A DNA stretch of 32,000 bases from Marine Group I thaumarchaeote (GCA_013390745.1 JACASX010000009.1:1-32000), one strand, 5' to 3'. Counted from the first letter of the stretch, positions 1-26,584 are shown. Numbers and translations are program-made. The notes: generated by a model from the sequence alone, not told the origin.

Positions 1-337
1 TAAAATCACCAATGTTAGATATAGAACGACCAAATGCATCATATGGTTCTATATCACCATGAAAGTTTCCTTGAGTTGACGAAATTTTTTGGTGGGATTT
101 TACAGTTCCATCAGAATTTAAGAATAGAATGTATACTGCACCAGTATTATAACCACCATCATGATCATATGGAGAGCCAACAGCAATATCATTAATTCCG
201 TCCCTATTCAAATCACCAATTGAAGCAATTGTGTATCCAAAAACAACCTTTTCTTGTAGAATTAATTTATCTTCACTTTGCGCATTAGCTATTGGAATGA
301 ATATTAACAAAAGGATCAAAATTACTAGAATGTTCAT
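1..337 (-). CDS. Secreted FG-GAP (integrin-alpha-like) repeat protein; N-terminal part only, the gene runs off the window start
   Basis: ATG at 337-335 on the minus strand, open to position 1. It is absent from the ORF track because it is truncated. My translation is MNILVILILLLIFIPIANAQSEDKL...GYTIASIGDLNRDGINDIAVGSPYDHDGGYNTGAVYILF...FGRSISNIGDF. That gives a signal peptide followed by DxNxDGxxD / GAVY strings typical of FG-GAP repeats. Confidence 0.6.
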   Translation of the reverse strand, partial: MNILVILILLLIFIPIANAQSEDKLILQEKVVFGYTIASIGDLNRDGINDIAVGSPYDHDGGYNTGAVYILFLNSDGTVKSHQKISSTQGNFHGDIEPYDAFGRSISNIGDF

Positions 338-410: not shown

Positions 411-1769
411 ATGAATTCCACGAACCGCCCAAATGTAATATTTTTACTAATTGATGGATTAAGAAAAGATGAAATATTTGATGAGAATAAAACATCAAAA
501 ACACCAAATTTTGATTCTTTAATTAAATCTGGCTCATTTTTTTCAAATGCATTTTCATCTGCCGATGGTACAATTCTTGCATTAAACACAATCTTCAATT
601 CCCTGTTTCCTTTTAATACTGGTGTAAGAGAAAGGAGAATAGTTCTTACAGATAATAATATTTTTAATATTTTTCAAAAAAATAAGTATCATATTTTTGG
701 ACTTGTGCCAGACATGGAAATTTATGAGCCAATCAAAAAGAAGTTTGAAAATAAATTAAATTCGTATGATTGGATTAATGGAAATGAATCACTTGCAACA
801 GGATTAACAAAAAAAATTATAAATATTTTACAATCTAATAATTCCGAACCGTGGATTTCTTATTTTCATATTTTAGATTTACATCCTTTAAGGGAAGGAA
901 AAATTCCTAATGGCATTGAAGAGTTTGAAAGTTCAGATTTCGGCTCAAGTAATTATTCTAAAACAGTATCTAGTATAGATTATTGGTTTGGAAAAATCTT
1001 AGAGTGTGTAGATTTGTCTAATACAATTATTATTTTAACATCAGATCATGGCGAAAAAATCCCGTACAAAGGAAGAACAAACTCAGATATGGAACACCGA
1101 TTGGACAGGACTAAAAAAATTGGAAAAAGCGTTTTGCCAAAAAAAACTCACGAAAAAGCTGGTAAAATGTTATCTAAAATAAGAACTTCAATTAGTAAAC
1201 CTAAAATAATAATAGAAAACCAAGAACTAACAAATTATCAAAAGCGTTCACGGACTCCTTACTTTACACTTTCATTACATGATGAAAATTTACATGTACC
1301 AATACTAATTGTGGGTAAGGGGATTTCACAATACTTGATAAAAAATTTTGTAAGACATGTAGATATTTTACCTACTTTGTGTGATATACTACATTTTGAA
1401 TTGCCTCAAAAAATTAATGGTGTAAGTTTCAAGCCATTACTTGAGCAAAAACAAATCCAGGAAAATATACAATATTTACATACAATGCCTTATGAAAAAC
1501 CTCATCAAGATGATGCGGTAGGAATAAGAACTAACAAATACAAATATTTTCGTTCAGTTCAAAATCCAAATAAAAACGTCCATTTGTATAATTTACAAAA
1601 AGATCCTCATGAAAACCACAATATTTCAGAGAATAATCAGAATGTTGTAAAAGAATTAGAAGAGGAATTATCAAGATTAATTAAAAATCCAATTACGTTT
1701 AATGAAGAGATGTCAGATGAGGATGATAAAAAAATTGAAGAAGAATTGAAAAAAATGGGATATTTATAA
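411..1769 (+). CDS. Alkaline-phosphatase-superfamily (sulfatase-fold) enzyme, cytoplasmic, Thr at the nucleophile position; predicted phospho/phosphono-ester transferase or esterase rather than a sulfatase
   Basis: N-terminal NVIFLLIDGLR metal-binding Asp string and LTSDHGE near the C-terminal part of the core. SSADGTILALNTIFNSLFPFNTG aligns by spacing to the sulfatase C-x-P-x-R...LTGxYP..TG block, with Thr replacing Cys/Ser and no P-x-R. No signal peptide. A 2-nt gap to the next gene indicates an operon. Confidence 0.75.
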   Translation: MNSTNRPNVIFLLIDGLRKDEIFDENKTSKTPNFDSLIKSGSFFSNAFSSADGTILALNTIFNSLFPFNTGVRERRIVLTDNNIFNIFQKNKYHIFGLVPDMEIYEPIKKKFENKLNSYDWINGNESLATGLTKKIINILQSNNSEPWISYFHILDLHPLREGKIPNGIEEFESSDFGSSNYSKTVSSIDYWFGKILECVDLSNTIIILTSDHGEKIPYKGRTNSDMEHRLDRTKKIGKSVLPKKTHEKAGKMLSKIRTSISKPKIIIENQELTNYQKRSRTPYFTLSLHDENLHVPILIVGKGISQYLIKNFVRHVDILPTLCDILHFELPQKINGVSFKPLLEQKQIQENIQYLHTMPYEKPHQDDAVGIRTNKYKYFRSVQNPNKNVHLYNLQKDPHENHNISENNQNVVKELEEELSRLIKNPITFNEEMSDEDDKKIEEELKKMGYL

Positions 1770-1771
1770 TT

Positions 1772-2887
1772 ATGAAAGATTTGAATTTAATATTAATACT
1801 GATAGATTCTGGTCGGCAAGATTATATGATTAAGTCAGAAATGATTGAAAGACTTAGATCAAAATTTTCATTTTTTACAAATGTAATAACATATGCACCG
1901 CATACAATTGCTTCAATGCATGCAATTTTTAGTGGTTGTTATGGAAATAGAACTGGAACGAATAGTTATTGGTCCACGTTTAAATTTAAAAAAAATAAAT
2001 TTAAAACTTTAACAGAATACCTTCATGAATTAGGATTTAAAACATATGCGGACGTACATAGCGATATTGTTTCTCCAAAACAAGGGTTTAATCAATTTAG
2101 AATTTATGATGAGGAAACAGTTGATATAACAACAAGACATTGTGATTTGTTAAATGAGGTTTCTAATGAAGGAGAAAAATTTTTTGTTTATTTACATTAT
2201 AGTAAAATTCATACAGGAATAAAAAATGAGGTTTTGAAAAAATATACCAATTTTAGTGAAGATTATTATAAAAATTTAAAATTAAACGAAAAGAGATATG
2301 AAAGATTATTTCATGAATCTGAAAATTATTTGAATAAAATTTTGGAAACAATTTGTTCATTAGAATTAGAAAAAAATTCTATCATACTAATTATGTCAGA
2401 TCATGGAATTAGTATAGGAGAAAAAATGGGTGAGATTGCATATGGTGCATTTTGTTATGATTATACACTCAAAACTTTCTCATTAATTAAATTTCCAGAA
2501 ATTACGCCAATTCAAATCAATCAACAAATTAGAAGTATAGACATGATGCCAACAATTCTTGATATTCTCGATATTCAAGTGGACAAACAGTTTGATGAAT
2601 TAGATGGGAAAACGTTGATGCCCTTAATATTAGGAAATAACATGGATGAGGAAATTGCATACTCAGAAACAGGTAATCCACTAAATGAAAAAAGACCTCC
2701 TAAGGAACCAAATACCATGTCGGTAAGAACTTCAAAATGGAAATTTATACACAATGCGCATAATAATACTAAAGAACTATATGATTTAGAAAATGATCCC
2801 TCTGAAACAAAAAATCTCTTTGGAACAAACTCGGATATTGAGAATTATTTGTGGGAAAAATTAGAAAACATAAGAAACAATTTTTAA
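1772..2887 (+). CDS. Second alkaline-phosphatase-superfamily (sulfatase-fold) enzyme, cytoplasmic, Thr nucleophile
   Basis: LILILIDSGRQD and IMSDHGISIGE. YAPHTIASMHAIFSGCYGNRTG puts Thr at the nucleophile position, with the same spacing as in the upstream paralog. The layout resembles the NPP-type T-x-x-x-H...G block. There is a 22-nt gap to the MpnS/HEPD gene on the same strand. Confidence 0.75.
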   Translation: MKDLNLILILIDSGRQDYMIKSEMIERLRSKFSFFTNVITYAPHTIASMHAIFSGCYGNRTGTNSYWSTFKFKKNKFKTLTEYLHELGFKTYADVHSDIVSPKQGFNQFRIYDEETVDITTRHCDLLNEVSNEGEKFFVYLHYSKIHTGIKNEVLKKYTNFSEDYYKNLKLNEKRYERLFHESENYLNKILETICSLELEKNSIILIMSDHGISIGEKMGEIAYGAFCYDYTLKTFSLIKFPEITPIQINQQIRSIDMMPTILDILDIQVDKQFDELDGKTLMPLILGNNMDEEIAYSETGNPLNEKRPPKEPNTMSVRTSKWKFIHNAHNNTKELYDLENDPSETKNLFGTNSDIENYLWEKLENIRNNF

Positions 2888-2909: not shown

Positions 2910-4301
2910 ATGGTAATCGTTTCTAATACAAAAAACCCTGAATTTGTTAGATTTGGTAATTATTTTTTAGGTATGTTAAATGATCTTAAGCGTAGGCCTG
3001 AAGATGCTGCAAATGAATTGAATATTCCATTAAAAGAAATAATGGATATTATTGACGGTAAAAAAGAGATAACTATAGAAATTATTTCGCGTGCAGTAAA
3101 AATCTGGTCAGTAAATTACAGAGACTTTTTTTTGATACGTGATGATTGCCCTAATGGGATTAAAATTATGCGTAACGAGGACTCGGCAAAGAGTTCACGT
3201 GTAATGGATAGAGGTGGTTTGCCTTACTATGAATATAGAGATACTGTAATGAGTAGTGTTGCATTATTTCGTCCTGAGTGGATTGAAGAACTTTGTATTG
3301 TAGAAGATAACGATCCAAACAATCTTGCAGTACAATGGAATAACGGTCATTTCATGCATCAATTTACATATTTTATTGGAGATGTTAATTATTATTATCG
3401 TGGACCTGATGGTGAAAAAAAAGTTGCCATAATGAATACGGGTGATTCAGTATATGGTACTCCGTTTAGACCACATTCATTTGCTACCAGAAAGGGTGCT
3501 AAAAAAAATGGTCTGATTTTGGCATTAACCTATGGAAATCAACTAGCTGCTGACACTCAACAAGAATTATCTGCTATTGGTGAAGAATTATCATTACCAT
3601 ATTGGCTAGATTTCTCTAGTAGAAAAAATGCTTTTGCGCTTTTATTGAATTTTCATCGTAATTGTGCATCACTAAGCTTCGACGAGCTGGAAAAAAGAAC
3701 CAGTACTAGCAAAGAGAAATTAATTCAATATGAAAATTCTTCTGAAATTCCATCTTATGAGACAATTGTAAGTTTAGCAGCAGCTATGAATGTTAATGCC
3801 AGAGATCTGCTTCCAAATGATGTCATTGAGGATAAAGTTATCGTGCAATATTACAAGGATTCAGCAAAATGGAATTTCCCAGAAACGACTAAGGCATATG
3901 AAATTGTCGAACTTGCACACTCAAGAAATCTACCTTTTTCAAAAGCATTTGAATTTACAACTTTAAAAGAAAATGATTCAAATTCGTTGGAAGAATTAGA
4001 TTTGATGGTAGGACTTCATCAATATGTTTACAATGTTGGAGAAAGCACGATACGTCTAAATTGGAAAATTAACAATAAATCTAATCTTGAAGAACTCAAA
4101 CCAGGTGATTCTGTCTACATTAAACCAAACGTACTGCATAATTTTCGTAATAAGGGTAAATTAATGGTTCTTAGGATTGCTGGACGAGTTGCTGGTGATG
4201 CACAAAGAGAATTATCTTCATTAGACAAAAATGATGCACATAGAGCTATTTCTGAAGTATCAATGTGGTTCGATTCACATGAAAAAACTAACATAAAATA
4301 A
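2910..4301 (+). CDS. 2-hydroxyethylphosphonate-cleaving non-heme Fe oxygenase of the MpnS/HEPD family (methylphosphonate synthase or hydroxyethylphosphonate dioxygenase); product specificity unresolved
   Basis: 463 aa with two HTH-like plus cupin halves. His147-x3-Gln151...His189 has the 2-His-1-Gln spacing I recall for N. maritimus MPnS (H148/Q152/H190). Lys27, Arg101, Tyr107 and Asn144 also sit one residue off the remembered substrate-binding residues. The gene lies beside pepM-ppd-pdh. Confidence 0.8.
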   Translation: MVIVSNTKNPEFVRFGNYFLGMLNDLKRRPEDAANELNIPLKEIMDIIDGKKEITIEIISRAVKIWSVNYRDFFLIRDDCPNGIKIMRNEDSAKSSRVMDRGGLPYYEYRDTVMSSVALFRPEWIEELCIVEDNDPNNLAVQWNNGHFMHQFTYFIGDVNYYYRGPDGEKKVAIMNTGDSVYGTPFRPHSFATRKGAKKNGLILALTYGNQLAADTQQELSAIGEELSLPYWLDFSSRKNAFALLLNFHRNCASLSFDELEKRTSTSKEKLIQYENSSEIPSYETIVSLAAAMNVNARDLLPNDVIEDKVIVQYYKDSAKWNFPETTKAYEIVELAHSRNLPFSKAFEFTTLKENDSNSLEELDLMVGLHQYVYNVGESTIRLNWKINNKSNLEELKPGDSVYIKPNVLHNFRNKGKLMVLRIAGRVAGDAQRELSSLDKNDAHRAISEVSMWFDSHEKTNIK

Positions 4302-4305
4302 GAAG

Positions 4306-5055
4306 TTAATCAACTATTTTTTCTCTTATATTTTCTAAATCTTCAATGGTATCAATTTCAAACCAGACACCATCAACAAAAATAGGATTTACAACTTCAT
4401 TAACTTGAATTAATTCATCTATCATATCGGTGAGGTATGCCTTTTGTAATGAAGGTGCATTATGAAACTCTCCCTGATGGGAAGAATTTAATCTCTCAAA
4501 AATATTGAGAAATTTCTTTGAACCAACATTGTTTAGTTTTATTATTCCTAAAAATTCACCTAATTGATGATTTTCAGTAGGATTCAGATTTTTTTTAATT
4601 TTTATTAGTTTATTTGATTTAATTAATGCTAAATCTGCTTCTGATTTTGGGTGCTGAGTACGATTCTCATATTTTTTTTCCCAGTTTAGATCAATTGCAA
4701 CCCCAATGTCATAAGTTGATTCAATCACCTGTTTCATTATGTTGTTATCAACTATTACATCCCCAAATGAAATCACAACATCATTCTGAAAATGTTTGTT
4801 AGCTGCCATTAAACTTCCTAATTGTTCATGGTCATGAAATTTTTTATCAACAACATATTCAATATTTTTTAATTGAAATTTGTCTTTATTTGGACCAATA
4901 ATTACAATGATCTCTTTAATACCATTATTTCGAAATGTTTCAATTTGTCTTTCAAGAATTGATTTTCCATTTACATCAACTAGTGATTTCGGCAAATCTT
5001 TTGTTATATTTCCTAATCTTGAACCCTCTCCAGCTGAAATAAATATGGCTTTCAT
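4306..5055 (-). CDS. LicC/PntC-like nucleotidyltransferase (probable phosphonate cytidylyltransferase), last gene of the pepM operon
   Basis: N-terminal ISAGEGSRLGNITKDLPKSLVDVNGKSILERQI is a G-x-G-x-R-L NTP-transferase loop. The C-terminal FEIDTIEDLENI resembles the LicC end. There is a 4-nt gap after the ppd beta subunit gene. It is a 249-aa paralog of 21613..22362. Confidence 0.75.
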   Translation of the reverse strand: MKAIFISAGEGSRLGNITKDLPKSLVDVNGKSILERQIETFRNNGIKEIIVIIGPNKDKFQLKNIEYVVDKKFHDHEQLGSLMAANKHFQNDVVISFGDVIVDNNIMKQVIESTYDIGVAIDLNWEKKYENRTQHPKSEADLALIKSNKLIKIKKNLNPTENHQLGEFLGIIKLNNVGSKKFLNIFERLNSSHQGEFHNAPSLQKAYLTDMIDELIQVNEVVNPIFVDGVWFEIDTIEDLENIREKIVD

Positions 5056-5059
5056 ACTA

Positions 5060-5614
5060 TCATTTTTTTAATGAATTCATAAATCTATTTTTAATTTTAG
5101 TCGGCTCTATGTTTATTCGTTTACTGGTAACTCCACCTTTTTGAATTTTAACAATTACCATGATTGGACCAGGAATTGTTTTTATTTTTTGAAAAACATT
5201 TACCAGTTGATTTTTTGTTTTTACCTGAAAAACTCTGTAATTTGTTGATTTAGCAATTTTACCTAATTGAATTTTATTTGTTGCTGTAGGCTGTCCACCT
5301 GTTGATTCATGACTACTATTATCAAAAATTACATGAACAAGATTTTTTGGTTTTGCTGTTCCTATAGTAATTAATGAACCTAGATTCATCAAAATATTTC
5401 CATCTCCATCAAACACAAAAATTCGCTTTTTTGTATTTTTTAATGCAACACCTAAACCAATTGAGGATGCCAATCCCATAGAACCAATCATATAGAAATT
5501 CGAATTCCTATCACAAACTTCAAAAAGATCTCGACTAATGAGACCATTTGCAGATATTACAGGATGATCACCAATTTTTTTAACTACTATGCTAATCGCT
5601 TCTTTTCTAATCAA
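5060..5614 (-). CDS. ppd: Phosphonopyruvate decarboxylase, beta subunit (ThDP diphosphate-binding domain; ComE-like)
   Basis: GSMGLASSIGLG and FDGDGNILMNLGSL...FDNSSHESTGGQ form a ThDP GDG...N motif. It overlaps the alpha subunit gene by 8 nt and lies immediately downstream of pepM. Confidence 0.8.
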   Translation of the reverse strand: MIRKEAISIVVKKIGDHPVISANGLISRDLFEVCDRNSNFYMIGSMGLASSIGLGVALKNTKKRIFVFDGDGNILMNLGSLITIGTAKPKNLVHVIFDNSSHESTGGQPTATNKIQLGKIAKSTNYRVFQVKTKNQLVNVFQKIKTIPGPIMVIVKIQKGGVTSKRINIEPTKIKNRFMNSLKK

Positions 5615-6095
5615 GAAAATCTCTTTTCAAAATTAATGTGCATGGTTTTTTCTCTTTGATCAGTTTTAAGGCCCAATTACAAGATACCTTCCAATTTTTT
5701 TCAGTTAAAATTTTAGATTGCAAAGAAAGTGCTTGAAGCAATTTCGGTTGGATCTTTCCAATTTTAGTGTGCTCGGGGGCATCATTTTCTAGGAAACCTC
5801 TCCAACCAATTAAAAAAATTATTGGTATTTGATATAATTGTACTAAAGATGTAATTGTGCTTAAAGAATTTGCAAACCCCGCATTTTGCATAAATACTAA
5901 AGAATTACTTTGTGATAAACTCATTCCAACAGCAATTCCAATAGCTTCTTCTTCTTTAGTAGTAATAAGAATTTTATTTTTTTTAAATCCTTGATCGATA
6001 AAATGTTTCATTGTTGAATCAGGTACTCCAATAAAATTTTCAATTCCATTATTAAATAAATAATCAAAAATTTGTTTTTGCGTTAATTCTTTCAA
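5607..6095 (-). CDS. ppd: Phosphonopyruvate decarboxylase, alpha subunit (ThDP pyrimidine-binding domain; ComD-like)
   Basis: FIGVPDSTMKHF...TTKEEEAIGIAVGMSL...FMQNAGFANS is a typical ThDP N-terminal domain with a catalytic Glu. It has a 4-nt ATGA-type overlap with pepM. Confidence 0.8.
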   Translation of the reverse strand: MKELTQKQIFDYLFNNGIENFIGVPDSTMKHFIDQGFKKNKILITTKEEEAIGIAVGMSLSQSNSLVFMQNAGFANSLSTITSLVQLYQIPIIFLIGWRGFLENDAPEHTKIGKIQPKLLQALSLQSKILTEKNWKVSCNWALKLIKEKKPCTLILKRDFLD

Positions 6096-6988
6096 GAGAT
6101 GTAGCCTAATTTTCTTAATTTTTCTTCAATATCTTTTTCTTGGGATTTAATATCAAACATTTCTTGTAATTTAAAAATTTCATCCATCGAGGACATTTCG
6201 TTCTGTATCTTGTCCATATTATTAGCATCTTTCATTTTGGTTAACAGATTCGTTAGTGCCTTGTGTGCAGCACGTAATGTTTGATTTGCATAAATAACCA
6301 TTTTGATATTATGAGAAATTAATTCGTCCATCTTTACGGAATAATATGTTGTGGGTATCGCAACCAACGGAGAACTTCCTTTCCAGGATTCTGAAAATTC
6401 AAAAATTTCTTCAGGGGAAATTTTTTTCGAATGAATTAAAATTAAATCAGCACCTGCTTTTTCATATGCATAAGCTCTTTTGAGTGCTTCATCCATACCT
6501 ATCCCTGAAATTAATGCCTCTACACGAGCAATAATCGAGAATGACTTGTTTTGTTTAGCTTCATTGGCAGCTAATATTTTTGCAACAAAATCTTTTTCAG
6601 ATAATAATTGGTTATTACCATTTTTTAACAAACTATTTTGCTTTGGAAATGTTTTATCCTCAATACAAATTCCAGCAATTCCGGCATTTTCATATTTTTT
6701 GACAATATGTCTGACATTATTTGCATCTCCATATCCAGTATCACAATCTGCAATTATAGGTATTTGACAAGATTGAACCATATTCGATGCGGCATCAAAA
6801 AATTCAGTCATAGTTAGGATACTAGCATCGGGTACATTGTGAATTGCAGAAATCGCAAAGCTCCCAGCCCAAACAGCGTCAAAACCATGTGTTTCAACTA
6901 ATTTTGCAGACATTGCATCATAAGCGCCACAGACTTTAACAATTTCTTTTTTTTCTAATAAATTTACTAAATTATCTGATTGATTCAT
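6092..6988 (-). CDS. pepM: Phosphoenolpyruvate phosphomutase (PEP mutase)
   Basis: Isocitrate-lyase/PEP-mutase fold (IIADCDTGYGD). The PepM-discriminating E-D-K-x5-N-S motif is present as CIEDKTFPKQNS, residues 110-119, nt 6632-6661, checked codon by codon. ppd follows immediately downstream. Confidence 0.92.
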   Translation of the reverse strand: MNQSDNLVNLLEKKEIVKVCGAYDAMSAKLVETHGFDAVWAGSFAISAIHNVPDASILTMTEFFDAASNMVQSCQIPIIADCDTGYGDANNVRHIVKKYENAGIAGICIEDKTFPKQNSLLKNGNNQLLSEKDFVAKILAANEAKQNKSFSIIARVEALISGIGMDEALKRAYAYEKAGADLILIHSKKISPEEIFEFSESWKGSSPLVAIPTTYYSVKMDELISHNIKMVIYANQTLRAAHKALTNLLTKMKDANNMDKIQNEMSSMDEIFKLQEMFDIKSQEKDIEEKLRKLGYIS

Positions 6989-7009
6989 GAAAAAAATTAT
7001 AATTGTAAG

Positions 7010-7019
7010 TTATAAAAAA
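7010..7019. promoter_or_regulatory. TATA-like element (ttataaaaaa) in the 51-bp divergent pepM/pdh spacer, centred ~26 nt from both start codons
   Basis: The centre at ~7014 is 26 nt from the pepM start (6988) and 26 nt from the pdh start (7040). This fits archaeal TATA-to-TSS spacing if both mRNAs are leaderless. Confidence 0.3.
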
Positions 7020-7039
7020 CATCCCATCGATTATAATGT

Positions 7040-7972
7040 ATGAAGATTATAAAACAACCAAATAATATAAAATTTGGACTTGGGGCTGCAAAAGATTTTA
7101 GCTGTCCAGAAAAATCGTTAGTGATTACCTCAAAAGGGGCCAGTTCGAGGGGATGGTTAAATTATACAAATCTAGAAAAACAAAAATGCTTTCATGATGT
7201 TGAACCTAATCCATCATTAGATACAGCAAAAAAAATTATTTCGAATTTTAAAGATGCAAATATTGAGTGTGTAATAGGACTTGGAGGTGGAAGCTCGTTA
7301 GATGTTGCAAAGTTTGTGGGACATAAACTAGGAAAGAAAAAAATTCTAATTCCAACTACATTCGGGAGTGGAAGTGAAGTAACAAGAATTGCCGTTTTAA
7401 CGGTTAAAGGTAAAAAAACAAGCTTTCATGATGATGAAATGTTTGCAGATACTGCAATTGTCGATCCACATTTTATTAAAAATTCACCAATGGAAGTAAT
7501 AAAAAACTCAGCTGTTGATGCATGTGCACAATGTACAGAAGGATATGACAGTAAAAATGGAAATGAGTATACAAAATTTTTGTGTAATGCCGCATTTGAC
7601 ATATTGGAAGATGCAATATTAAACGAAAAATATGAAAATTTGCCCATGGGTTCATTAGTTACTGGATTAGGATTTGGAAACTGTTCAACAACATTAGGTC
7701 ATGCATTATCATATGTGTTTTCAAATGAAGGATACAGTCATGGTCATGCTTTATCATTTACAACATTAGCCGCTCATCAATTTAATTCATCAAAATTCAA
7801 AGAAAGATTCGAAAAAATAACTAAAAAATTAGAGTTTGAAAGAATTTATTTAAAACAAGATTTAATGATTGCAGCAAAATCAGTTTTCTCTGATAGAAGA
7901 CATTTAGATAATAATCCTAAAATTGTTTCTAAAGGTGATATTATAGATATTTTAAAGCAATTCAAAATCTGA
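7040..7972 (+). CDS. pdh: Iron-containing (group III) alcohol dehydrogenase, probable phosphonoacetaldehyde reductase producing 2-hydroxyethylphosphonate
   Basis: GLGGGSSLDVAKF and a His-rich metal site (LGHALSYVFSNEGYSHGHALS). The gene is divergent from pepM and supplies the reduction step needed between Ppd and MpnS/HEPD. It is short (310 aa) for the family. Confidence 0.7.
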   Translation: MKIIKQPNNIKFGLGAAKDFSCPEKSLVITSKGASSRGWLNYTNLEKQKCFHDVEPNPSLDTAKKIISNFKDANIECVIGLGGGSSLDVAKFVGHKLGKKKILIPTTFGSGSEVTRIAVLTVKGKKTSFHDDEMFADTAIVDPHFIKNSPMEVIKNSAVDACAQCTEGYDSKNGNEYTKFLCNAAFDILEDAILNEKYENLPMGSLVTGLGFGNCSTTLGHALSYVFSNEGYSHGHALSFTTLAAHQFNSSKFKERFEKITKKLEFERIYLKQDLMIAAKSVFSDRRHLDNNPKIVSKGDIIDILKQFKI

Positions 7973-8155: not shown

Positions 8156-8728
8156 ATGTTTCTGATTTCACAGAATATTGAGTCATATGATGTCCAATTA
8201 CCTGATAATGCAGTATTTCGTATTAATCTTGCATGGTGTAACAATCTAAAAGAATTAGAAAATAAATTAGCAAAAAACAAGAAATCAGAATTTTTTGTTG
8301 ATTTACCTGTTGGAAGGATTAAACCGCCAAATAACAAATATTCGTTAGATGATATGATACCGATTATTGAGGCAAATCCGTGTATAAAGTATCTTGCTGT
8401 ATCAAACGTTGAAAACAAGAATGACTTACAACCATTTCTAGAAAAATTACCAGATTACATCAACATAGTACCAAAAATAGAAAGCCAAAAAGCAGTATTA
8501 AATATTAAAGAGATTTGTGATTCATTAAAAACTGAAAAGAAGATTGTAATGTTAGATCATGATGATTTATTTTCTTCAATAATTCATAATAACGAGGATA
8601 AAAATAAGTTTCAAGAATACATAAAATCGTTAATTGATTTTTGTAATGCGAATAGTATTTCATTATTGAGAACTGTCGGAGTTGCATTTAGTGACGATGA
8701 GAAGAGAACAACACAATATGAGAAATAA
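8156..8728 (+). CDS. 190-aa pyruvate-kinase-barrel-like (PK/HpcH-type) mini-protein; putative PEP/pyruvate plus divalent-metal binding; function unknown
   Basis: Segments line up in order with remembered PK A-domain motifs. FRINLAW matches ARLNFSH. FFVDLPVGRIK matches LLDTKGPEIR. IKYLAVSNV matches IDFIAASFV. IVPKIESQKAVLNIKEI matches IIAKIENxEGVxNIDEI. IVMLDHDDLF matches LMVARGDLG. DFCNANSISLLRTVG matches KKCNxxGKPVITATQ. The B and C domains are absent. Confidence 0.45.
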   Translation: MFLISQNIESYDVQLPDNAVFRINLAWCNNLKELENKLAKNKKSEFFVDLPVGRIKPPNNKYSLDDMIPIIEANPCIKYLAVSNVENKNDLQPFLEKLPDYINIVPKIESQKAVLNIKEICDSLKTEKKIVMLDHDDLFSSIIHNNEDKNKFQEYIKSLIDFCNANSISLLRTVGVAFSDDEKRTTQYEK

Positions 8729-8752: not shown

Positions 8753-10174
8753 ATGAAAAATTTCATTGTCTTCCCGTTTCTATTAGCGTTCTTGCCATCA
8801 TGGCAACTGATCTTGAAAAATTATGACGAATTAATTTTCCAAGACATTCTCATTTCATTAGTCATAATAGCTATATCAGTAATAATTTGGATAGTAATTA
8901 CAAAAATAATTAAAAATGGAAATAAAGCGGCTCTAATTACAGGCGTAGGCGTAGCATTCTTCTTTTACTTTGGTTATATGCAAGATGCATTAAATGGGAT
9001 AATGATTTTCAATATTCCCATAGACAAAACTAGTGTTTTAGTGATAATATCAATAATAATTTTTATCACATCAACAATTTATTTTGTAAAATCAAGAAAG
9101 AATTTTGAATTATCAATAAAAATTGGTAATGTTTTTACAATAACATTAATTCTATTTACTTTAGTACAATTTGTTATACCTGGCGCACTTGCTGAAAAAC
9201 CTAATGTGTATCACATAATACTGGATGAATATACCGATAATGAAATTTTGATGGAGAAATTTAACTATGACAACGAAGAATTCTTCAAATTTCTAAACAA
9301 AAATGGATTTTTCATACCAAGTAAATCATTTTCATCGTTTACATCAACTGATGCTGAATTAAACGTGATATTAAACATGGAATATCCAAAAGAGATAGGA
9401 CGGGCATCCGAAAATTATGATTATCTGAATGATAACAACGCTATGTCAGTATTTTCTGAGCAAAATTATTCACTTATTGAAACAAATTCTATGATGCGCT
9501 GGAAGAATTTTTCAGACGTAGATACGAAACTTTGTTATGATACAACCTTCATCAATTCCGAGTTCTTAGATCAAGTTTTAAGAAAATCAATAATTAAACA
9601 CTTTTTAGAAAAACATCAAGAAAATACACGACGTGACGTAATAAGATGCACATTTCACGAATTGAGTGAAATAGCATCGCAAACCAGCGGACCAAAATAT
9701 GTTTTTTCGCACATATATGTGCCACACCCACCATTCCTTTTTGGTCCAAATGGTGAAAATGTTACACCTGATCATCGTGAGATAAGTGGATTGCAAAGTT
9801 GGGAAAACCCACAAGGATACATAGATCAATTAATTTATGCTACAAATGAAGTAAGTACAGTAATAAAAAATATTATAAAAAATGATCCTAACGCAATAAT
9901 TATTGTGCAGGGAGATACAGGCACATCAACAATGTTTCATTCAGCTCCAACAGAATTCAAAGATGTTTATCAAATCTATTCTATTCTTTATGCAATAAGA
10001 ATTCCAGATGTCAATAACTTGGATGCTATGATACCAGTTAACACGTATAGAATTATTTTCAATAATTATTTTAATATGGATTATGAATATTTAGAACAAC
10101 GCAGCTATATGCTTGATCAAAACAATGTTTGGATAGATATTACAGAAAAATTACACGAATACAGATTTGATTAG
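8753..10174 (+). CDS. Polytopic membrane protein with an extracytoplasmic alkaline-phosphatase-superfamily domain (LtaS/EptA-like architecture), paralog A
   Basis: About 145 aa of hydrophobic helices come first. Then come VYHIILDEYTDNE (metal Asp), SFSSFTSTD (Thr candidates), FSHIYVPHPPFLFGPNGENVTP and IIIVQGDTGTS. It aligns end to end with 18410..20020. Confidence 0.6.
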   Translation: MKNFIVFPFLLAFLPSWQLILKNYDELIFQDILISLVIIAISVIIWIVITKIIKNGNKAALITGVGVAFFFYFGYMQDALNGIMIFNIPIDKTSVLVIISIIIFITSTIYFVKSRKNFELSIKIGNVFTITLILFTLVQFVIPGALAEKPNVYHIILDEYTDNEILMEKFNYDNEEFFKFLNKNGFFIPSKSFSSFTSTDAELNVILNMEYPKEIGRASENYDYLNDNNAMSVFSEQNYSLIETNSMMRWKNFSDVDTKLCYDTTFINSEFLDQVLRKSIIKHFLEKHQENTRRDVIRCTFHELSEIASQTSGPKYVFSHIYVPHPPFLFGPNGENVTPDHREISGLQSWENPQGYIDQLIYATNEVSTVIKNIIKNDPNAIIIVQGDTGTSTMFHSAPTEFKDVYQIYSILYAIRIPDVNNLDAMIPVNTYRIIFNNYFNMDYEYLEQRSYMLDQNNVWIDITEKLHEYRFD

Positions 10175-11613
10175 GCATCTTTGTTATGTAATTCCCTAAT
10201 GTATTGAGCCCCAATTTTTGCTGATTCTCCAATATTATACACTGTTTTTTCACGTATATCTTTGATTAGCTCACCAATATTTTGAGTATTTTTATCTAAA
10301 ATTCTAATAAGATCTAAAATTTCTTCCAAATTATTTGGTGAAATTATGTGACCAATTTTATCTCTAATCGATGTTTCAATTGGTTCTAGTGCAATATCAC
10401 TCCAATTTGTATTTAAGACCTTTTTTGGAACATCAATAAAAATAACTGGGCGTTCAAAAGTAAATGCATATTCTAATGAAATGCCTGACCAATCTGAGAT
10501 CATACACAGAGAATTATTTAACGAATCGAACTTAATGACGCCTGTCTCAAGAACAAAATTAGGATTTTTCCCAAATTTTTTCTTTATTGAATCAATTAAT
10601 TCTGTAGAATCTCTCAATGTTCTTATATGTGGTCTTATCATCACTCTGAAATCTGATTTTAATAAAATATCAATCAGTTTAATTCCGCACTTCTCAAGAA
10701 GATTATCGTCTCCATATGATGGTGCAATTATAATTAAATTCTTAGCATCAGAATTTGTTGCTTGAGCATTTATCTTGTTTTGTAATAATGTGTCTAATCT
10801 GCCATATCCATAATTGATTAATTTTTTTGCTTTCAATCCATATACCTTTTCTGCCTCTCGGATTTCTTTGATTTGATGAGGGCCGACACAAAAAATTGTA
10901 TCGTAGTTATCTATCGCTCCTTTTCTTAGATACGAATGAACGCTATACATTGAATGAAATAAGTAAATGTAGTGAACAGGATATTCATCGGATCTTTTGA
11001 TATGGAATTTGCCTAAATCTGGCATGTCCATTACTAAAATTTTCGCTTTTAATGAAGAAAAGAATTTTGTCCGTGCTGTTCCATCGCCAATATAAAACGG
11101 TAGAATTCTTTGATTTCTGGTAGATAATATTGGATCATCCTTAACTGATGTAACATAACAAATTTGTAAATTCATTTTTTCAGTTAATTCATGAATTAAC
11201 GATTGAAAATGATTCATTGATGCTTTATTTTCAGCATAAAATACGATTGAGCGTTCGTCCTGGCTTAACTGATTAATTTTTTTTAATTCAGCCCATTCTG
11301 AAACAAAACCAGACTCTAAACTATGTTTATCAGTGGATTCTGTTTGCTTTTCTTTAGAAAAACCTCCAGAAAATCTTGTTTTTATTTTAAACCAATATGA
11401 TTTTAAAATCATTGCGCCCGCGGCAACCACACCAGCAAGTAATGTAAGTAAAGCACTTCCGGTAACCGGATCAATGTAAGCATATACATCTAAAACAAAA
11501 AACTGATGAAATGTTAATAATATTGCAACAAAAGGAATCAATTTTCTATATTTTATGTGGCTAAATCGATCCATCTCATTAGTAAATTCTTGAACAAAAA
11601 ATGGGATTTTCAT
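10171..11613 (-). CDS. TagF-like CDP-alcohol phosphotransferase family protein (Glyphos_transf-like) with an N-terminal hairpin membrane anchor, paralog A
   Basis: IIIAPSYGDD matches YAPTWR. MIRPHIRT matches K-x-HP. MISDWSGISLEYAFTFERPVIFIDVP matches ITDYSSvfFDfaxxdKPiIFy. The N-terminus has two TM helices flanking AYAYIDPVTGS. Stop codons overlap convergently with 8753..10174. Confidence 0.6.
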   Translation of the reverse strand: MKIPFFVQEFTNEMDRFSHIKYRKLIPFVAILLTFHQFFVLDVYAYIDPVTGSALLTLLAGVVAAGAMILKSYWFKIKTRFSGGFSKEKQTESTDKHSLESGFVSEWAELKKINQLSQDERSIVFYAENKASMNHFQSLIHELTEKMNLQICYVTSVKDDPILSTRNQRILPFYIGDGTARTKFFSSLKAKILVMDMPDLGKFHIKRSDEYPVHYIYLFHSMYSVHSYLRKGAIDNYDTIFCVGPHQIKEIREAEKVYGLKAKKLINYGYGRLDTLLQNKINAQATNSDAKNLIIIAPSYGDDNLLEKCGIKLIDILLKSDFRVMIRPHIRTLRDSTELIDSIKKKFGKNPNFVLETGVIKFDSLNNSLCMISDWSGISLEYAFTFERPVIFIDVPKKVLNTNWSDIALEPIETSIRDKIGHIISPNNLEEILDLIRILDKNTQNIGELIKDIREKTVYNIGESAKIGAQYIRELHNKDA

Positions 11614-20351: not shown

Positions 20352-21548
20352 ATGAAAATCACCAAATCGATTTTTGGTAAAGAAGGGAACGATATCGACA
20401 AATTTAATGAATTGGATTTGGATGAACGTTCAATCGTTTTCTATTCGGAAAGTTCAGTTATCTTGTATCCATATGTTGAGGAAATAATTAGGGAGCTCCA
20501 AAATAGAGATCAAAAAATTTGTTATTTAACCTCAAGCAAACATGATCCCATTCTCAAAAACGAGAGTAAAAACATCAAAGTTTTTTACATTGGTGACTCT
20601 GAAATTGAAAAAATGAAATTTTTTTTAAGATTAAAGGCAAAGGTGTTAATTATGACCATGCCTGATTTAGGAAGTTACCATATTAAGCGTTCAAAAATAT
20701 TCCCAGTTCATTACATTTACACTTTTCATTCAATGAATAGTACGCATATGGATGGTACTAATTACGTCAGGACTTCTCTCTTTCGAAAGAGTACACTTGA
20801 CCAGTTTGATAGTATATTTTGTGTAGGGAAATACCAAGTTCAAGAAATTCGTGCCACTGAAGAGTTGTATAACCTTAACAAAAAAAATTTGGTTGAATGC
20901 GGATATGGGTTATTAGACAAATTAATCAGATTAAGATCTTCATCTGCACAACAAAATTTTCTGTCACAAAATAATAAAAAAAAGGTTCTAATTGCACCTT
21001 CATGGGGAAAACAAAATTTATTGGAATCTGTGGGCATAGAATTAGTAAAAATTTTACTTGATGCTGGTTATCATGTTACAATTAGACCACATCCTATGAC
21101 CATTAAAAAATCACCCAAGGTAGTAAAACAAATTAAGGAAAAATTTGAGAAAAATCCAGATTTTGATTTAGATACAAATGTATCCTCTCTTGAACAATTG
21201 TTGTCTAGTTATGCACTGATTACAGATTGGTCAGGAATTGGTTATGAATATGCATTCGTTTGCGAAAGACCTGTGATTTATGTTGAGGTTCTAAAAAAAG
21301 CTCGTAATAAAGAATATGAAAAAATTGGGCTTGAACAATTTGAAATTAGTATTAGAGATAAAATAGGCGAAATTGTTTCTATTCAAAATATAGAAAACAT
21401 ACCAGAACGCATCGAATTTTTGTATGCTCATATCAACGATTTTGAAAATAAAATCCAGAAAATTCGGAATGATGCAATTTTCAATATTGGAGAATCTGGA
21501 AAAGTAACTGCTAATGAGATTATTAGAATAATTAATGAAAAAGCATAA
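20352..21548 (+). CDS. TagF-like CDP-alcohol phosphotransferase catalytic domain, paralog B, lacking its own membrane anchor
   Basis: DERSIVFY, MPDLGSYHIKRS, FPVHYIYTFHSM, LIAPSWGKQN, IRPHPMT and ITDWSGIGYEYAFVCERPVIYVEV are all colinear with residues ~115-480 of 10171..11613. Confidence 0.6.
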   Translation: MKITKSIFGKEGNDIDKFNELDLDERSIVFYSESSVILYPYVEEIIRELQNRDQKICYLTSSKHDPILKNESKNIKVFYIGDSEIEKMKFFLRLKAKVLIMTMPDLGSYHIKRSKIFPVHYIYTFHSMNSTHMDGTNYVRTSLFRKSTLDQFDSIFCVGKYQVQEIRATEELYNLNKKNLVECGYGLLDKLIRLRSSSAQQNFLSQNNKKKVLIAPSWGKQNLLESVGIELVKILLDAGYHVTIRPHPMTIKKSPKVVKQIKEKFEKNPDFDLDTNVSSLEQLLSSYALITDWSGIGYEYAFVCERPVIYVEVLKKARNKEYEKIGLEQFEISIRDKIGEIVSIQNIENIPERIEFLYAHINDFENKIQKIRNDAIFNIGESGKVTANEIIRIINEKA

Positions 21549-21580
21549 GCAAAATAGCTTGTGATAAATTTGTTCTAACA

Positions 21581-21588
21581 TTATATTA
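21581..21588 (+). promoter_or_regulatory. TATA-like element (ttatatta) ~28 nt upstream of the 21613 start
   Basis: Position and composition only. It would give the nucleotidyltransferase/oxygenase/radical-SAM operon its own promoter. Confidence 0.25.
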
Positions 21589-21612
21589 TGGCCAGTTAAT
21601 GTCATAAATTAC

Positions 21613-22362: not shown

Positions 22363-22376
22363 AATATTGATATTGA

Positions 22377-26523: not shown

Positions 26524-26584
26524 CAAAGTGTGTTACTCAAATTCTATAAAAAGAGTATTAAGATGGCAAAATTGAGTTAGCTCA

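What the first reader, a model, noticed from the sequence alone, without database searches (positions are those of the whole stretch)
2910..7972. Complete PEP -> 2-hydroxyethylphosphonate -> C1-phosphonate pathway in two divergent, translationally coupled operons
pepM carries the discriminating EDKx5NS motif (nt 6632-6661). pepM, ppd-alpha, ppd-beta and the nucleotidyltransferase overlap or are separated by 4 nt or less, so they form one operon. pdh is divergent across a 51-bp spacer.

The MpnS/HEPD gene converges on the operon end with only 4 nt between stop codons. It is itself the third gene of an operon that begins with the two AP-fold genes.

This matches the pathway logic established for methylphosphonate synthesis in N. 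maritimus (Metcalf et al. 2012, from memory). Methylphosphonate is the proposed source of aerobic marine methane.
Basis: partly seen in the sequence, partly recalled or inferred. Interest (0 to 1): 0.8.

Follow-up and report, generated by a model that had tools for sequence, protein, structure and literature searches.

The report
Archaeal phosphonate cluster with HEPD-type oxygenase
This is the known marine-archaeal gene cluster for making a one-carbon phosphonate from phosphoenolpyruvate, but its last enzyme carries the two residues that specify hydroxymethylphosphonate rather than methylphosphonate, the methane precursor.

Summary
The window comes from an uncultured marine Nitrosopumilaceae archaeon (Marine Group I). 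The locus is the counterpart of the Nitrosopumilus maritimus methylphosphonate cluster: PepM, split Ppd alpha/beta, Fe-alcohol dehydrogenase (Pdh), a LicC-like cytidylyltransferase, two alkaline-phosphatase-fold proteins and an MPnS/HEPD-family oxygenase.

The refinement concerns the oxygenase (2910-4301).
- Its best solved relative is N. maritimus MPnS (E = 3e-163), and it keeps the His/Gln/His iron triad.
- The two glutamine-adjacent residues published as required for methylphosphonate synthesis (Phe162, Ile184) are Tyr161 and Gly183 here. That is the class II HEPD state.
- This state marks a monophyletic marine clade of 66-100% identity, conserved through synonymous codon turnover.
- The clade sits among Phe/Ile thaumarchaeal MPnS sequences.
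- It is absent from 185,579 GTDB species representatives.
- It made up about 10% of thaumarchaeal-type contigs in a truncated metagenome scan.

The predicted product is therefore hydroxymethylphosphonate plus formate, probably CMP-activated and attached to surface glycans. This is inferred from sequence, not shown. A true MPnS remains a serious rival.

The parts
411..1769 (+). AP-superfamily (sulfatase-fold) protein 1, 452 aa, soluble
   Evidence: Pfam Sulfatase 2.8e-25 and SGSH_C. No C/S-x-P-x-R formylglycine motif and no TM segment. A homologue sits in Nitrosopumilaceae phosphonate clusters at 30-43% identity.
1772..2887 (+). AP-superfamily (sulfatase-fold) protein 2, 371 aa. Thr replaces the formylglycine Cys, so it is probably a phospho(no)-ester transferase or hydrolase rather than a sulfatase.
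   Evidence: Pfam Sulfatase 7e-22. In the alignment to sulfatase 6hr5, query Thr falls on the catalytic Cys and Met on the Arg. It is 54-60% identical to the sulf2 gene beside mpnS in all Nitrosopumilaceae loci.
2910..4301 (+). MPnS/HEPD-family non-haem Fe(II) oxygenase, 463 aa. MPnS-lineage backbone with the class II HEPD determinant residues.
   Evidence: PDB hits: NmMPnS 6b9s 3.3e-163, SaHEPD 6b9r 2.6e-80, HppE 3.3e-09. 100% identical to NCBI 'hypothetical protein HX833_05300 [Marine Group I thaumarchaeote]'.
3348..3362 (+). Iron ligands His147 (CAT 3348-3350) and Gln151 (CAA 3360-3362). These correspond to Nm His148 and Gln152.
   Evidence: Ungapped alignment to 6b9s; codons read; invariant in alignments A1 and A2.
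3390..3392 (+). Tyr161 (TAT). The equivalent position is Phe162 in MPnS and Tyr163 in S. albus HEPD.
   Evidence: Markers taken from Lockwood 2022 Table S2. TAT and TAC are both used within the clade.
3450..3458 (+). Val181-Tyr182-Gly183 (GTA TAT GGT). Gly183 corresponds to Ile184 in MPnS and Gly184 in HEPD. Val181 co-varies with the Tyr/Gly state.
   Evidence: All four Gly codons and three Val codons occur across the clade.
3474..3476 (+). Iron ligand His189 (CAT), corresponding to Nm His190
4306..5055 (-). LicC-like nucleotidyltransferase, 249 aa. Presumed phosphonate cytidylyltransferase.
   Evidence: Pfam NTP_transf_3 3.9e-12. Best solved relative is CTP:phosphocholine cytidylyltransferase LicC 1jyk, 2.9e-14. 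Last gene of the pepM operon and syntenic in relatives.
5060..5614 (-). Phosphonopyruvate decarboxylase beta subunit, 184 aa
   Evidence: TIGR03297 3.6e-54 over profile positions 171-358. ThDP motif GDG-x26-N at residue 70.
5607..6095 (-). Phosphonopyruvate decarboxylase alpha subunit, 162 aa
   Evidence: TIGR03297 2.1e-28 over profile positions 1-155; Pfam TPP_enzyme_N.
6092..6988 (-). PEP mutase (PepM), 298 aa. The EDKTFPKQNS motif lies at nt 6632-6661.
   Evidence: Pfam PEP_mutase 1.1e-57. TIGR02320 2.2e-87 at 292.7 bits, against a cut-off of 319.55. Motif. Best PDB hits are PEP mutases 5unc (4.5e-72) and 1m1b.
6989..7039 (.). 51-bp A+T-rich divergent spacer between pepM and pdh, with TTATAA / ATTATAAT TATA-like boxes
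   Evidence: Sequence read. Promoter function is inferred; no archaeal promoter tool was available.
7040..7972 (+). Phosphonoacetaldehyde reductase candidate (Pdh/PhpC-type Fe-ADH), a short form of 310 aa
   Evidence: Pfam Fe-ADH 9.6e-29. TIGR03405 2.3e-25, far below its cut-off. 59-68% identical to the pdh beside pepM in Nitrosopumilaceae loci. About 30 residues are missing after the GGGS loop, and the DxxxH motif reads DxxxQ.
8156..8728 (+). Conserved 190-aa minimal PEP/pyruvate-superfamily barrel downstream of pdh; role unknown
   Evidence: Weak HpcH_HpaI and pyruvate-kinase hits. 2723 homologues (E <= 0.001); the best 120 listed are 77-91% identical. AF2 pLDDT 76; Foldseek best matches are the pyruvate kinase barrel and citramalyl-CoA lyase. 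A homologue also follows pdh in L091.
8753..10174 (+). Membrane-anchored AP-superfamily paralogue, 473 aa. Candidate phospho(no)transferase.
   Evidence: 4-5 N-terminal hydrophobic segments. The C-terminal HIYVPHPP...GDTGT resembles the 18410-20020 protein.
10171..11613 (-). TagF-like CDP-alcohol phosphotransferase, 480 aa. Candidate transferase of the CMP-activated phosphonate.
   Evidence: Pfam Glyphos_transf 1.2e-06. TagF-like/NT pairs recur around cupin genes in L086 and L087.

Best explanation
The locus is the Marine Group I thaumarchaeal phosphonoglycan cluster, orthologous to the N. maritimus methylphosphonate cluster.

Proposed pathway:
1. PepM converts PEP to phosphonopyruvate.
2. The split ThDP enzyme Ppd alpha/beta decarboxylates it to phosphonoacetaldehyde.
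3. The Fe-ADH Pdh reduces that to 2-hydroxyethylphosphonate (2-HEP).
4. The oxygenase at 2910-4301 cleaves the C1-C2 bond of 2-HEP with O2 at a His147/Gln151/His189 Fe(II) site.

The positions flanking the iron-binding Gln are Tyr161 and Gly183 (with Val181), not Phe and Ile. This is the arrangement of class II HEPD. By the published rationale as I recall it, the Gln is free to move in that arrangement, and the methylphosphonate radical is hydroxylated rather than quenched by formate. I therefore predict that the enzyme releases hydroxymethylphosphonate plus formate, not methylphosphonate plus CO2.

Downstream, the LicC-like nucleotidyltransferase would activate the product as a CMP conjugate. 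Thr-type AP-fold and/or TagF-like transferases in the surrounding N-glycan / surface-polysaccharide island would then esterify it to cell-surface glycans.

What is shown and what is inferred:
- Shown here: gene identities, motifs, synteny, the residue states, their conservation and their phylogenetic position.
- Inferred: the product, the CMP activation and the glycan acceptor.
For: Pathway genes and motifs.

Orthology: the gene set and order match Nitrosopumilus, Nitrosopelagicus, Nitrosotenuis and Nitrosarchaeum loci at 44-70% identity for every protein.

Residue states:
- The region from His148 to His190 aligns without gaps to NmMPnS. It gives H-Q-Y-G-H, against H-Q-F-I-H in MPnS and H-Q-Y-G-H in SaHEPD.
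- Published markers are MPnS = H148 Q152 F162 I/V184 H190 and HEPD = H148 A/Q152 I/Y162 E/G184 H190 (Lockwood 2022 Table S2).
- Phe and Ile are described as 'required for methylphosphonate synthesis' (PMC11978286 citing Born 2017).

The state is selected, not a sequencing error:
- 103 of the 120 closest database proteins are H-Q-Y-G-H.
- The clade is monophyletic in 100/100 and 200/200 bootstraps.
- Tyr, Val and Gly are kept through TAT/TAC, GTA/GTT/GTG and all four GGN codons.
- A third position (Val182 in Nm numbering) also matches the HEPD group: 74% of Tyr/Gly representatives against 2% of Phe/Ile ones. All 20 actinomycete Tyr/Gly loci have it.

The enzyme is otherwise intact. Residues K27, R28, R101, Y109 and N144, which I take from memory to be the 2-HEP site, are conserved.

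Activation and transfer: the NT's nearest solved relative is LicC. TagF-like, GT1/GT4, UDP-sugar enzymes and AglB fill the rest of the window.

Hydroxymethylphosphonate is reported as enriched in marine high-molecular-weight DOM (Sosa 2019, PMC6581173).
Against: - No assay exists for any member of this clade.
- As far as I recall, the only experimental test of the marker pair was in the other direction: SaHEPD Y163F/G184I gains MPnS activity. I could not read that paper.
- The backbone is MPnS-like: 54-58% identity to Phe/Ile enzymes against 36% to SaHEPD. Second-shell residues might hold the Gln in place despite Tyr/Gly.
- The gene context is that of MPn-producing relatives. No HMP-specific downstream enzymes, such as PhpE/PhpJ-like ones, lie next to it.
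- JGI names several clade members 'methylphosphonate synthase', although that is homology-based.
- The AF2 model was too poor to examine the active site.
Confidence: 0.55

Rival explanations
1. The oxygenase is a genuine methylphosphonate synthase, as in N. maritimus. The Tyr/Gly pair is tolerated in this scaffold, and the cluster decorates glycans with methylphosphonate.
For: The best solved relative by far is NmMPnS (3.3e-163). Quartet bootstraps place the query with NmMPnS against SaHEPD-type sequences in 445-500 of 500 replicates for most quartets. The cluster is syntenic with MPn-type clusters. JGI labels clade members as methylphosphonate synthase.
Against: Both published MPnS-defining residues are absent. 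Three active-site positions have converged on the HEPD state and are held by purifying selection, which is hard to explain if the chemistry were unchanged. All 53 Phe/Ile loci from GTDB, including every archaeal one, keep F and I strictly.
Confidence: 0.3
2. The enzyme gives a mixture (HMP and MPn) or another oxidation product of 2-HEP or of a CMP-/glycan-bound hydroxyalkylphosphonate. The Tyr/Gly, Phe/Gly and Phe/Gln variants would then be steps in diversifying surface phosphonates.
For: A subclade nested inside the Tyr/Gly clade has Phe/Gly or Phe/Gln, together with M150Q and F153V. SAR202 sequences are Tyr/Ile hybrids. The island carries further tailoring enzymes: an FrbJ-like dioxygenase, a B12 radical-SAM methyltransferase, and repeated NT/TagF pairs.
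Against: Mixed states are rare compared with the two coupled states: Phe/Ile 95 and Tyr/Gly 25 of 150 representatives. The 2-HEP-binding residues are conserved. No evidence for an alternative substrate was found.
Confidence: 0.12
3. The oxygenase gene is decaying or non-catalytic, for example acting as an HTH regulator, and the cluster stops at 2-HEP.
For: Pfam reports HTH_19/HTH_3 hits at residues 242-301. 2-HEP esters are known in marine DOM (PMC8942020).
Against: The reading frame is intact. All iron ligands and many other columns are invariant across 66-100% identical relatives, with synonymous turnover at the key codons. From my own knowledge, the HTH-like helical domains are a normal part of the HEPD/MPnS fold.
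Confidence: 0.03

Closest known systems
Nitrosopumilus maritimus methylphosphonate cluster and MPnS (PDB 6b9s/6b9t; Metcalf 2012, Born 2017)
   Same: Same gene set: PepM, split Ppd, Pdh, NT, sulfatase-fold proteins and the oxygenase. Same archaeal family. The oxygenase is about 55% identical with the same His/Gln/His triad and length. It sits in a surface-glycan context.
   Different: The Gln-adjacent residues are Tyr161/Gly183 (plus Val181) instead of Phe162/Ile184 (Met182). The order of sulf2 and the oxygenase is swapped: sulf1-sulf2-cupin here, against sulf1-cupin-sulf2 in other Nitrosopumilaceae. The predicted product differs.
Class II HEPD, Streptomyces albus (PDB 6b9r)
   Same: The same five marker residues, H-Q-Y-G-H, and the same Val before the Tyr/Trp-Gly (SVYG here, SVWG there). 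Same substrate and fold family.
   Different: Only 36% identical. The actinomycete Tyr/Gly sequences form a separate clade. They occur in secondary-metabolite clusters, not in a surface-glycan island. The Tyr/Gly state here appears to have arisen independently within the MPnS radiation.
Class I HEPD (PhpD, S. viridochromogenes) and HppE (Fom4)
   Same: Same cupin superfamily. Class I HEPD catalyses the same 2-HEP to HMP reaction.
   Different: Class I uses a 2-His-1-Glu triad: Ala at position 152 and Glu at 184 in Lockwood's table. The query has Gln and Gly there. HppE is a single-cupin protein of about 190 aa and matches only weakly (3.3e-09).
CMP-activated phosphonate and phosphocholine decoration systems (LicC/LicD, PntC) and TagF-type teichoic acid transferases
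   Same: A LicC-like nucleotidyltransferase is encoded in the pepM operon. TagF-like transferases are nearby.
   Different: No LicD homologue was seen. The transferase candidates are TagF-like and Thr-type AP-fold proteins, and their substrates are untested.

Membership tests
PEP mutase (PepM) | Active-site motif EDKx5NS, with Asn rather than the Thr of phosphonopyruvate hydrolase | tested here: met
   EDKTFPKQNS at residues 110-119. Marker table.
PEP mutase (PepM) | Scores best against the PepM model and clears its curated cut-off | tested here: inconclusive
   TIGR02320 is the best hit (292.7 bits, 2.2e-87) but falls below its cut-off of 319.55. Phosphonopyruvate hydrolase scores 238.6, PrpB 170.8 and CPEP mutase 127.3. 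The best PDB hits are PEP mutases.
PEP mutase (PepM) | Adjacent phosphonopyruvate decarboxylase to pull the unfavourable equilibrium | tested here: met
   ppdA overlaps the pepM stop by 4 nt.
Phosphonopyruvate decarboxylase (Ppd) | ThDP enzyme with a GDG-x(24-27)-N(N) cofactor motif; best match to the Ppd model | tested here: met
   GDG-x26-N in the beta subunit. TIGR03297 is the top hit for both halves, although sulfopyruvate decarboxylase models score almost as well. Context decides in favour of Ppd.
Phosphonoacetaldehyde reductase (Pdh/PhpC) | Fe-ADH fold with metal ligands Asp/His/His (D199, H268, H282 in Lockwood's table) | tested here: met
   Asp, and the His residues of GHALSY and SHGHA, align with the ligands of 3zdr. 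The extra His of the DxxxH motif is Gln.
Phosphonoacetaldehyde reductase (Pdh/PhpC) | Clears the curated equivalog model for phosphonate-associated Fe-ADH | tested here: not met
   TIGR03405 scores 89 bits against a cut-off of 423.7. The assignment rests on synteny with pdh in relatives at 59-68% identity.
Methylphosphonate synthase (MPnS) | 2-His-1-Gln iron triad (H148, Q152, H190) | tested here: met
   H147, Q151 and H189.
Methylphosphonate synthase (MPnS) | Phe at position 162 next to the Gln | tested here: not met
   Tyr161. Marker.
Methylphosphonate synthase (MPnS) | Ile (or Val) at position 184 next to the Gln | tested here: not met
   Gly183.
Methylphosphonate synthase (MPnS) | Converts 2-HEP to methylphosphonate plus CO2 | not testable with these tools
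   Needs an enzyme assay.
HEPD class II | H148, Q152, Y162, G184, H190 | tested here: met
   H-Q-Y-G-H, identical to SaHEPD 6b9r. Val182 is also shared.
HEPD class II | Groups phylogenetically with characterised class II HEPDs | tested here: not met
   36% identity to SaHEPD against 54-58% to Phe/Ile enzymes. Quartets place it with NmMPnS. The NJ tree places the clade among thaumarchaeal Phe/Ile sequences.
HEPD class II | Converts 2-HEP to hydroxymethylphosphonate plus formate | not testable with these tools
   Needs an enzyme assay.
HEPD class I | 2-His-1-Glu triad (Glu at the position equivalent to 184, Ala at 152) | tested here: not met
   Gly183 and Gln151. Table.
Formylglycine sulfatases (for 411-1769 and 1772-2887) | C/S-x-P/A-x-R formylglycine motif | tested here: not met
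   The motif is absent from both proteins. In the 1772-2887 protein, Thr lies at the Cys position and Met at the Arg position.

The most novel reading that the evidence does not exclude
A widespread, uncultured lineage of marine ammonia-oxidising archaea has converted its methylphosphonate synthase into a hydroxyethylphosphonate dioxygenase. It did so by changing the same Gln-adjacent residues that were swapped experimentally in the opposite direction. This would be a natural, independent MPnS-to-HEPD switch.

These archaea would then decorate their surface glycans with hydroxymethylphosphonate. That would make them a previously unrecognised source of the HMPn found in marine high-molecular-weight DOM, and part of the 'archaeal mpnS' signal in ocean metagenomes would not represent methane-precursor synthesis.

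The Phe/Gly and Phe/Gln variants nested in the clade, and the NT/TagF/FrbJ-like/B12-rSAM module in the same island, would be further steps in diversifying surface phosphonates.
Probability: 0.45. Interest if true: 0.68.

Novelty: new variant of a known kind. Interest (0 to 1): 0.55.

Why it matters
Methylphosphonate made by MPnS is the accepted precursor of methane formed in oxygenated seawater. Global estimates of that potential count mpnS homologues in metagenomes, and a large mesopelagic share is assigned to Thaumarchaeota (Lockwood 2022; PMC12916788).

If this clade makes hydroxymethylphosphonate instead, three things follow:
- Roughly a tenth of thaumarchaeal-type 'mpnS' contigs, on a truncated sample, do not feed the methane pathway. 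From general chemistry, HMPn would give methanol by C-P lyase. By PhnY/PhnZ it gives formate (Sosa 2019).
- The HMPn detected in marine DOM gains an archaeal source. One survey found marine hepD only in Pelagibacterales and one Prochlorococcus.
- Nature supplies the reciprocal of the engineered HEPD-to-MPnS switch, with apparent single-step variants. This is a compact system for testing how two residues steer a radical reaction.

Practically, homology-only annotation of MPnS should be replaced by marker-aware calls.

Tried and rejected
- Primary papers. Born 2017 and Metcalf 2012 are not held. The marker definitions therefore come from Lockwood 2022 Table S2 and PMC11978286. The mechanistic rationale and the direction of the published mutagenesis are from my memory.
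- AlphaFold2 of the oxygenase. The alignment contained only sequences >=71% identical and gave pLDDT 46.5. The model was discarded and no fold search was run on it.
- Family-wide NJ tree. Backbone nodes are weak, at 5-47%, so I do not claim an exact sister group. I rely on clade monophyly, identity levels and quartet bootstraps. One quartet (Q,Nm | P0135,P0128) was only 274/500, and the N-terminal half carries some HEPD-like signal. I attribute that signal to the converged active-site positions.
- An Ile-to-Val-to-Gly intermediate lineage. Phe/Val sequences exist (L133, L143), but they group with Nitrosopelagicus L007 and not next to the Tyr/Gly clade.
- Genus assignment through the tetraether lipid synthase gene. 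The nearest named relative is 88% identical and labelled only 'Nitrosopumilaceae archaeon'. The genus is unresolved.
- The serA-like 2-hydroxyacid dehydrogenase at 28993-30189 as a PhpE-like HMP dehydrogenase. I considered this and set it aside. The gene lies 25 kb away in the higher-GC core region next to Tes. It was not tested further.
- Sigma-70 promoter and terminator scan. Not run, because the organism is an archaeon.
- tRNA and Rfam scans of the window found nothing.

Full report
**1. Observation**

The ORF map matches the finding exactly:
- 411-1769(+) and 1772-2887(+): sulfatase / alkaline-phosphatase (AP) fold proteins
- 2910-4301(+): cupin protein
- 4306-5055(-): nucleotidyltransferase (NT)
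- 5060-5614(-) and 5607-6095(-): ThDP enzyme halves
- 6092-6988(-): PEP-mutase family protein
- 7040-7972(+): Fe-alcohol dehydrogenase

Spacing is as stated. pepM/ppdA overlap by 4 nt, ppdA/ppdB by 8 nt, and 4 nt separate ppdB from NT. The pepM-pdh spacer is 51 bp, and 4 nt lie between the convergent stop codons of the cupin gene and NT. PepM residues 110-119 read EDKTFPKQNS, which falls on nt 6632-6661.

Family assignments are unambiguous:
- PepM scores best against PEP mutase (TIGR02320, 2.2e-87), ahead of phosphonopyruvate hydrolase, PrpB and carboxy-PEP mutase. Its nearest solved structures are PEP mutases.
- Ppd beta carries the GDG-x26-N ThDP motif.
- Pdh is a short Fe-ADH. It lacks about 30 residues after the GGGS loop and has DxxxQ in place of DxxxH. 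It is 59-68% identical to the pdh next to pepM in related archaeal loci.

Strictly there are three transcription units rather than two.

**2. Source and context**

The cupin protein is 100% identical to an NCBI 'hypothetical protein' from a Marine Group I thaumarchaeote MAG. The tetraether lipid synthase at the right end of the window has an 88% relative labelled Nitrosopumilaceae.

The cluster lies in a low-GC (27-31%) surface-glycan island. The island holds TagF-like transferases, GT1/GT4 glycosyltransferases, UDP-glucose dehydrogenase, an epimerase, further nucleotidyltransferases and the oligosaccharyltransferase AglB.

A scan of 185,579 GTDB species representatives recovered the same cluster in Nitrosopumilus, Nitrosopelagicus, Nitrosotenuis and Nitrosarchaeum. 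Every protein there is 44-70% identical to the window's. The locus is therefore the counterpart of the N. maritimus methylphosphonate cluster. One rearrangement stands out: the order is sulf1-sulf2-cupin here and sulf1-cupin-sulf2 in the relatives.

**3. The oxygenase**

Against solved structures the best match is N. maritimus MPnS (6b9s, 3.3e-163). S. albus HEPD follows (6b9r, 2.6e-80), then HppE. The alignment from His148 to His190 has no gaps.
- The iron ligands are conserved: His147, Gln151 and His189.
- The two Gln-adjacent positions are Tyr161 and Gly183. NmMPnS has Phe162 and Ile184 there; SaHEPD has Tyr163 and Gly184.

Two papers give these positions as the discriminators:
- Lockwood 2022 Table S2 lists MPnS as H148/Q152/F162/I-or-V184/H190 and HEPD as H148/A-or-Q152/I-or-Y162/E-or-G184/H190.
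- PMC11978286 calls Phe and Ile 'required for methylphosphonate synthesis', citing Born 2017.

By these criteria the protein fails the MPnS test on two defining residues and passes the class II HEPD test on all five.

**4. Is the residue state real and selected?**

- Of the 120 closest proteins in the 5.8-billion-sequence collection (>=71% identity), 103 are H-Q-Y-G-H. Eight are H-Q-F-G-H and eight H-Q-F-Q-H. One is a Phe/Ile chimera whose N-terminal half is 89% identical to a Phe/Ile lineage and whose C-terminal half is 100% identical to a clade member.
- Metagenome contigs extend the clade down to 66% identity.
- The clade is monophyletic in 100/100 and 200/200 bootstraps.
- Across its members Tyr is encoded by TAT or TAC, Val181 by GTA, GTT or GTG, and Gly183 by all four GGN codons. 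The amino acids are therefore held by purifying selection.
- Clade members keep the full pepM-ppd-NT neighbourhood.

**5. Where did it come from?**

- Among 150 representatives of the whole family at 50% clustering, 95 are Phe/Ile and 25 are Tyr/Gly.
- The 13 representatives nearest the query (44-58% identity) are all Phe/Ile. Every other full-length Tyr/Gly representative is at most 42% identical to the query.
- All 53 Phe/Ile loci retrieved from GTDB include every archaeal and SAR11 locus. All 20 Tyr/Gly loci are actinomycete.
- Quartet bootstraps put the query with NmMPnS rather than with SaHEPD-type sequences in 445-500 of 500 replicates. One quartet gave only 274.
- Exactly four alignment columns are shared by the query clade and the HEPD group but not by Phe/Ile sequences: positions 162, 182 and 184 and, more weakly, 103.

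The simplest reading is an independent, convergent acquisition of the HEPD active-site state within the thaumarchaeal MPnS radiation. The exact sister group is not resolved, because backbone support is low.

**6. Mechanism proposed**

PepM, Ppd and Pdh make 2-HEP. The oxygenase cleaves it.

From memory of Born 2017, Phe and Ile pin the iron-bound Gln in MPnS. Formate then stays positioned to donate a hydrogen atom to the methylphosphonate radical, giving MPn plus CO2. With Tyr and Gly the Gln can move, and the radical is hydroxylated instead, giving HMP plus formate. I therefore predict hydroxymethylphosphonate as the product (confidence about 0.55).

The NT's nearest solved relative is the phosphocholine cytidylyltransferase LicC, so CMP activation is likely.

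The 'sulfatases' lack the formylglycine motif, and the second has Thr at the catalytic Cys position. From my own knowledge, Thr is the nucleophile in AP-superfamily phosphotransferases and phosphodiesterases. Together with the TagF-like proteins, these are the candidate transferases to glycans. All of this downstream part is inference.

**7. Rivals**

- A true MPnS remains plausible (0.3). The scaffold is MPnS-like, no clade member has been assayed, and to my knowledge the marker pair was validated only in the HEPD-to-MPnS direction.
- A mixed or different product has probability about 0.12. Nested Phe/Gly and Phe/Gln variants and SAR202 Tyr/Ile hybrids suggest it.
- A dead or regulatory protein (0.03) is contradicted by the conservation.

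**8. What is known, and novelty**

The pathway itself has been known since 2012. What I did not find in the searchable literature is a thaumarchaeal HEPD-type enzyme.
- Lockwood 2022 states that marine hepD sequences derive from Pelagibacterales plus one Prochlorococcus, and lists Thaumarchaeota under mpnS.
- Searches combining hydroxymethylphosphonate or HepD with Thaumarchaeota or archaea returned nothing further.
- JGI labels clade members 'methylphosphonate synthase'.
- No GTDB species representative has a relative above 60% identity.

The clade is therefore a minority, near 10%, and not the main archaeal form.

Sosa 2019 reports HMPn, alongside MPn, as enriched in marine high-molecular-weight DOM, and shows it is oxidised to formate without methane.

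One caveat remains. I could not read Born 2017, which may already show such sequences.

**9. Verdict**

The methylphosphonate and methane implication is not supported by the defining residues. The locus is a new variant of a known system. It is of moderate interest and directly testable by one enzyme assay.

Noticed in passing
window 20352-25386: A second possible phosphonate-tailoring module with four genes: a TagF-like transferase (20352-21548), a 45% paralogue of the cluster's LicC-like NT (21613-22362), a TauD-family dioxygenase (22377-23321) and a B12-binding radical-SAM C-methyltransferase of the KedN5/TokK/CysS type (23308-25386). The dioxygenase's best solved relative is the phosphonate hydroxylase FrbJ (5eqn, 1.7e-25; TmpA also hits). 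The arrangement recalls cytidylyl-2-HEP methylation by Fom3. It could yield hydroxylated or methylated (hydroxypropyl) phosphonates from the same 2-HEP pool.
   Followed up: partly
L086 1423-11886 and L087 (contigs carrying the Phe/Gln variant P0098): The Phe/Gln oxygenase variant is surrounded by three or four repeated NT + TagF-like pairs and a TauD gene. No pepM or ppd lies within 13.5 kb. This suggests modular 'activate-and-transfer' cassettes for several phosphonates.
   Followed up: partly
P0069, P0075, P0076, P0079-P0081, P0087, P0093 (Phe/Gly); P0089-P0092, P0095-P0098 (Phe/Gln): A subclade nested inside the Tyr/Gly clade (99% bootstrap with P0068) has reverted Tyr to Phe while keeping Gly or gaining Gln at position 184. 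It also has M150Q and F153V next to the iron ligands. These are natural 'single-mutant' states of unknown product.
   Followed up: partly
L023, L026, L027 (Chloroflexota / SAR202 genomes); L104: SAR202-type homologues carry a Tyr162/Ile184 hybrid (VNYYY...SCYITPF). This matches neither the published MPnS signature nor the HEPD signature.
   Followed up: no
window 411-2887, 8753-10174, 18410-20020: All four sulfatase-fold proteins lack the formylglycine motif. The 1772-2887 protein has Thr at the Cys position. Two of them (8753-10174 and 18410-20020) have multi-pass N-terminal membrane domains like LtaS/EptA. 'Sulfatase' is probably a misnomer for phospho(no)transferases or esterases.
   Followed up: partly
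window 8156-8728: A 190-aa ORF after pdh has 2723 homologues (E <= 0.001); the best 120 listed, mostly from ENA and JGI metagenome assemblies, are 77-91% identical. It folds (pLDDT 76) as a minimal pyruvate-kinase / citrate-lyase-beta-like barrel. A homologue also follows pdh in a Phe/Ile lineage (L091). Its role in phosphonate metabolism is unknown.
   Followed up: partly
L091 6426-8480, L132, L164: In the P0122-type Phe/Ile lineage, ppdA is followed directly by a divergent pdh, with no pepM between them or elsewhere on a 13-kb contig. The same contigs share TauD, NT and TagF genes 80-85% identical to the window's, yet the oxygenase is only 59% identical. The core phosphonate cassette seems to be exchanged as a divergent allele within a shared island.
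   Followed up: partly
P0064 and P0063 (database proteins): These are chimeric oxygenases. The N-terminal 215 residues of P0064 are 89% identical to a Phe/Ile lineage (P0122), and its C-terminal 253 residues are 100% identical to a Tyr/Gly clade member. P0063 has a foreign first ~105 residues. Either recombination between co-occurring alleles or assembly chimeras could explain this.
   Followed up: partly
L083 842-2558, L084: In a 73% Tyr/Gly clade member, a sulfotransferase and a fibrillarin-like methyltransferase lie immediately upstream of sulf2 and the oxygenase.
   Followed up: no
window 7040-7972: The Pdh is unusually short: 310 aa against roughly 350-390 for typical Fe-ADHs. It has a deletion after the GGGS NAD-binding loop, and the DxxxH motif reads DxxxQ.
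   Followed up: partly
window 26000-32000: GC content rises from 27-31% to 34-38% at about 26 kb. This marks the edge of the low-GC glycan island. AglB lies at 26585-28975, a 2-hydroxyacid dehydrogenase at 28993-30189 and tetraether lipid synthase Tes at 30226-31893. The closest Tes cluster (98% identity) has 2666 member sequences, so the host lineage is abundant.
   Followed up: partly
window 1-337 (- strand): The N-terminus of a secreted FG-GAP/VCBS-like repeat protein (signal peptide MNILVILILLLIFIPIANA) runs off the left end of the window. It is divergent from the first AP-fold gene.
   Followed up: no
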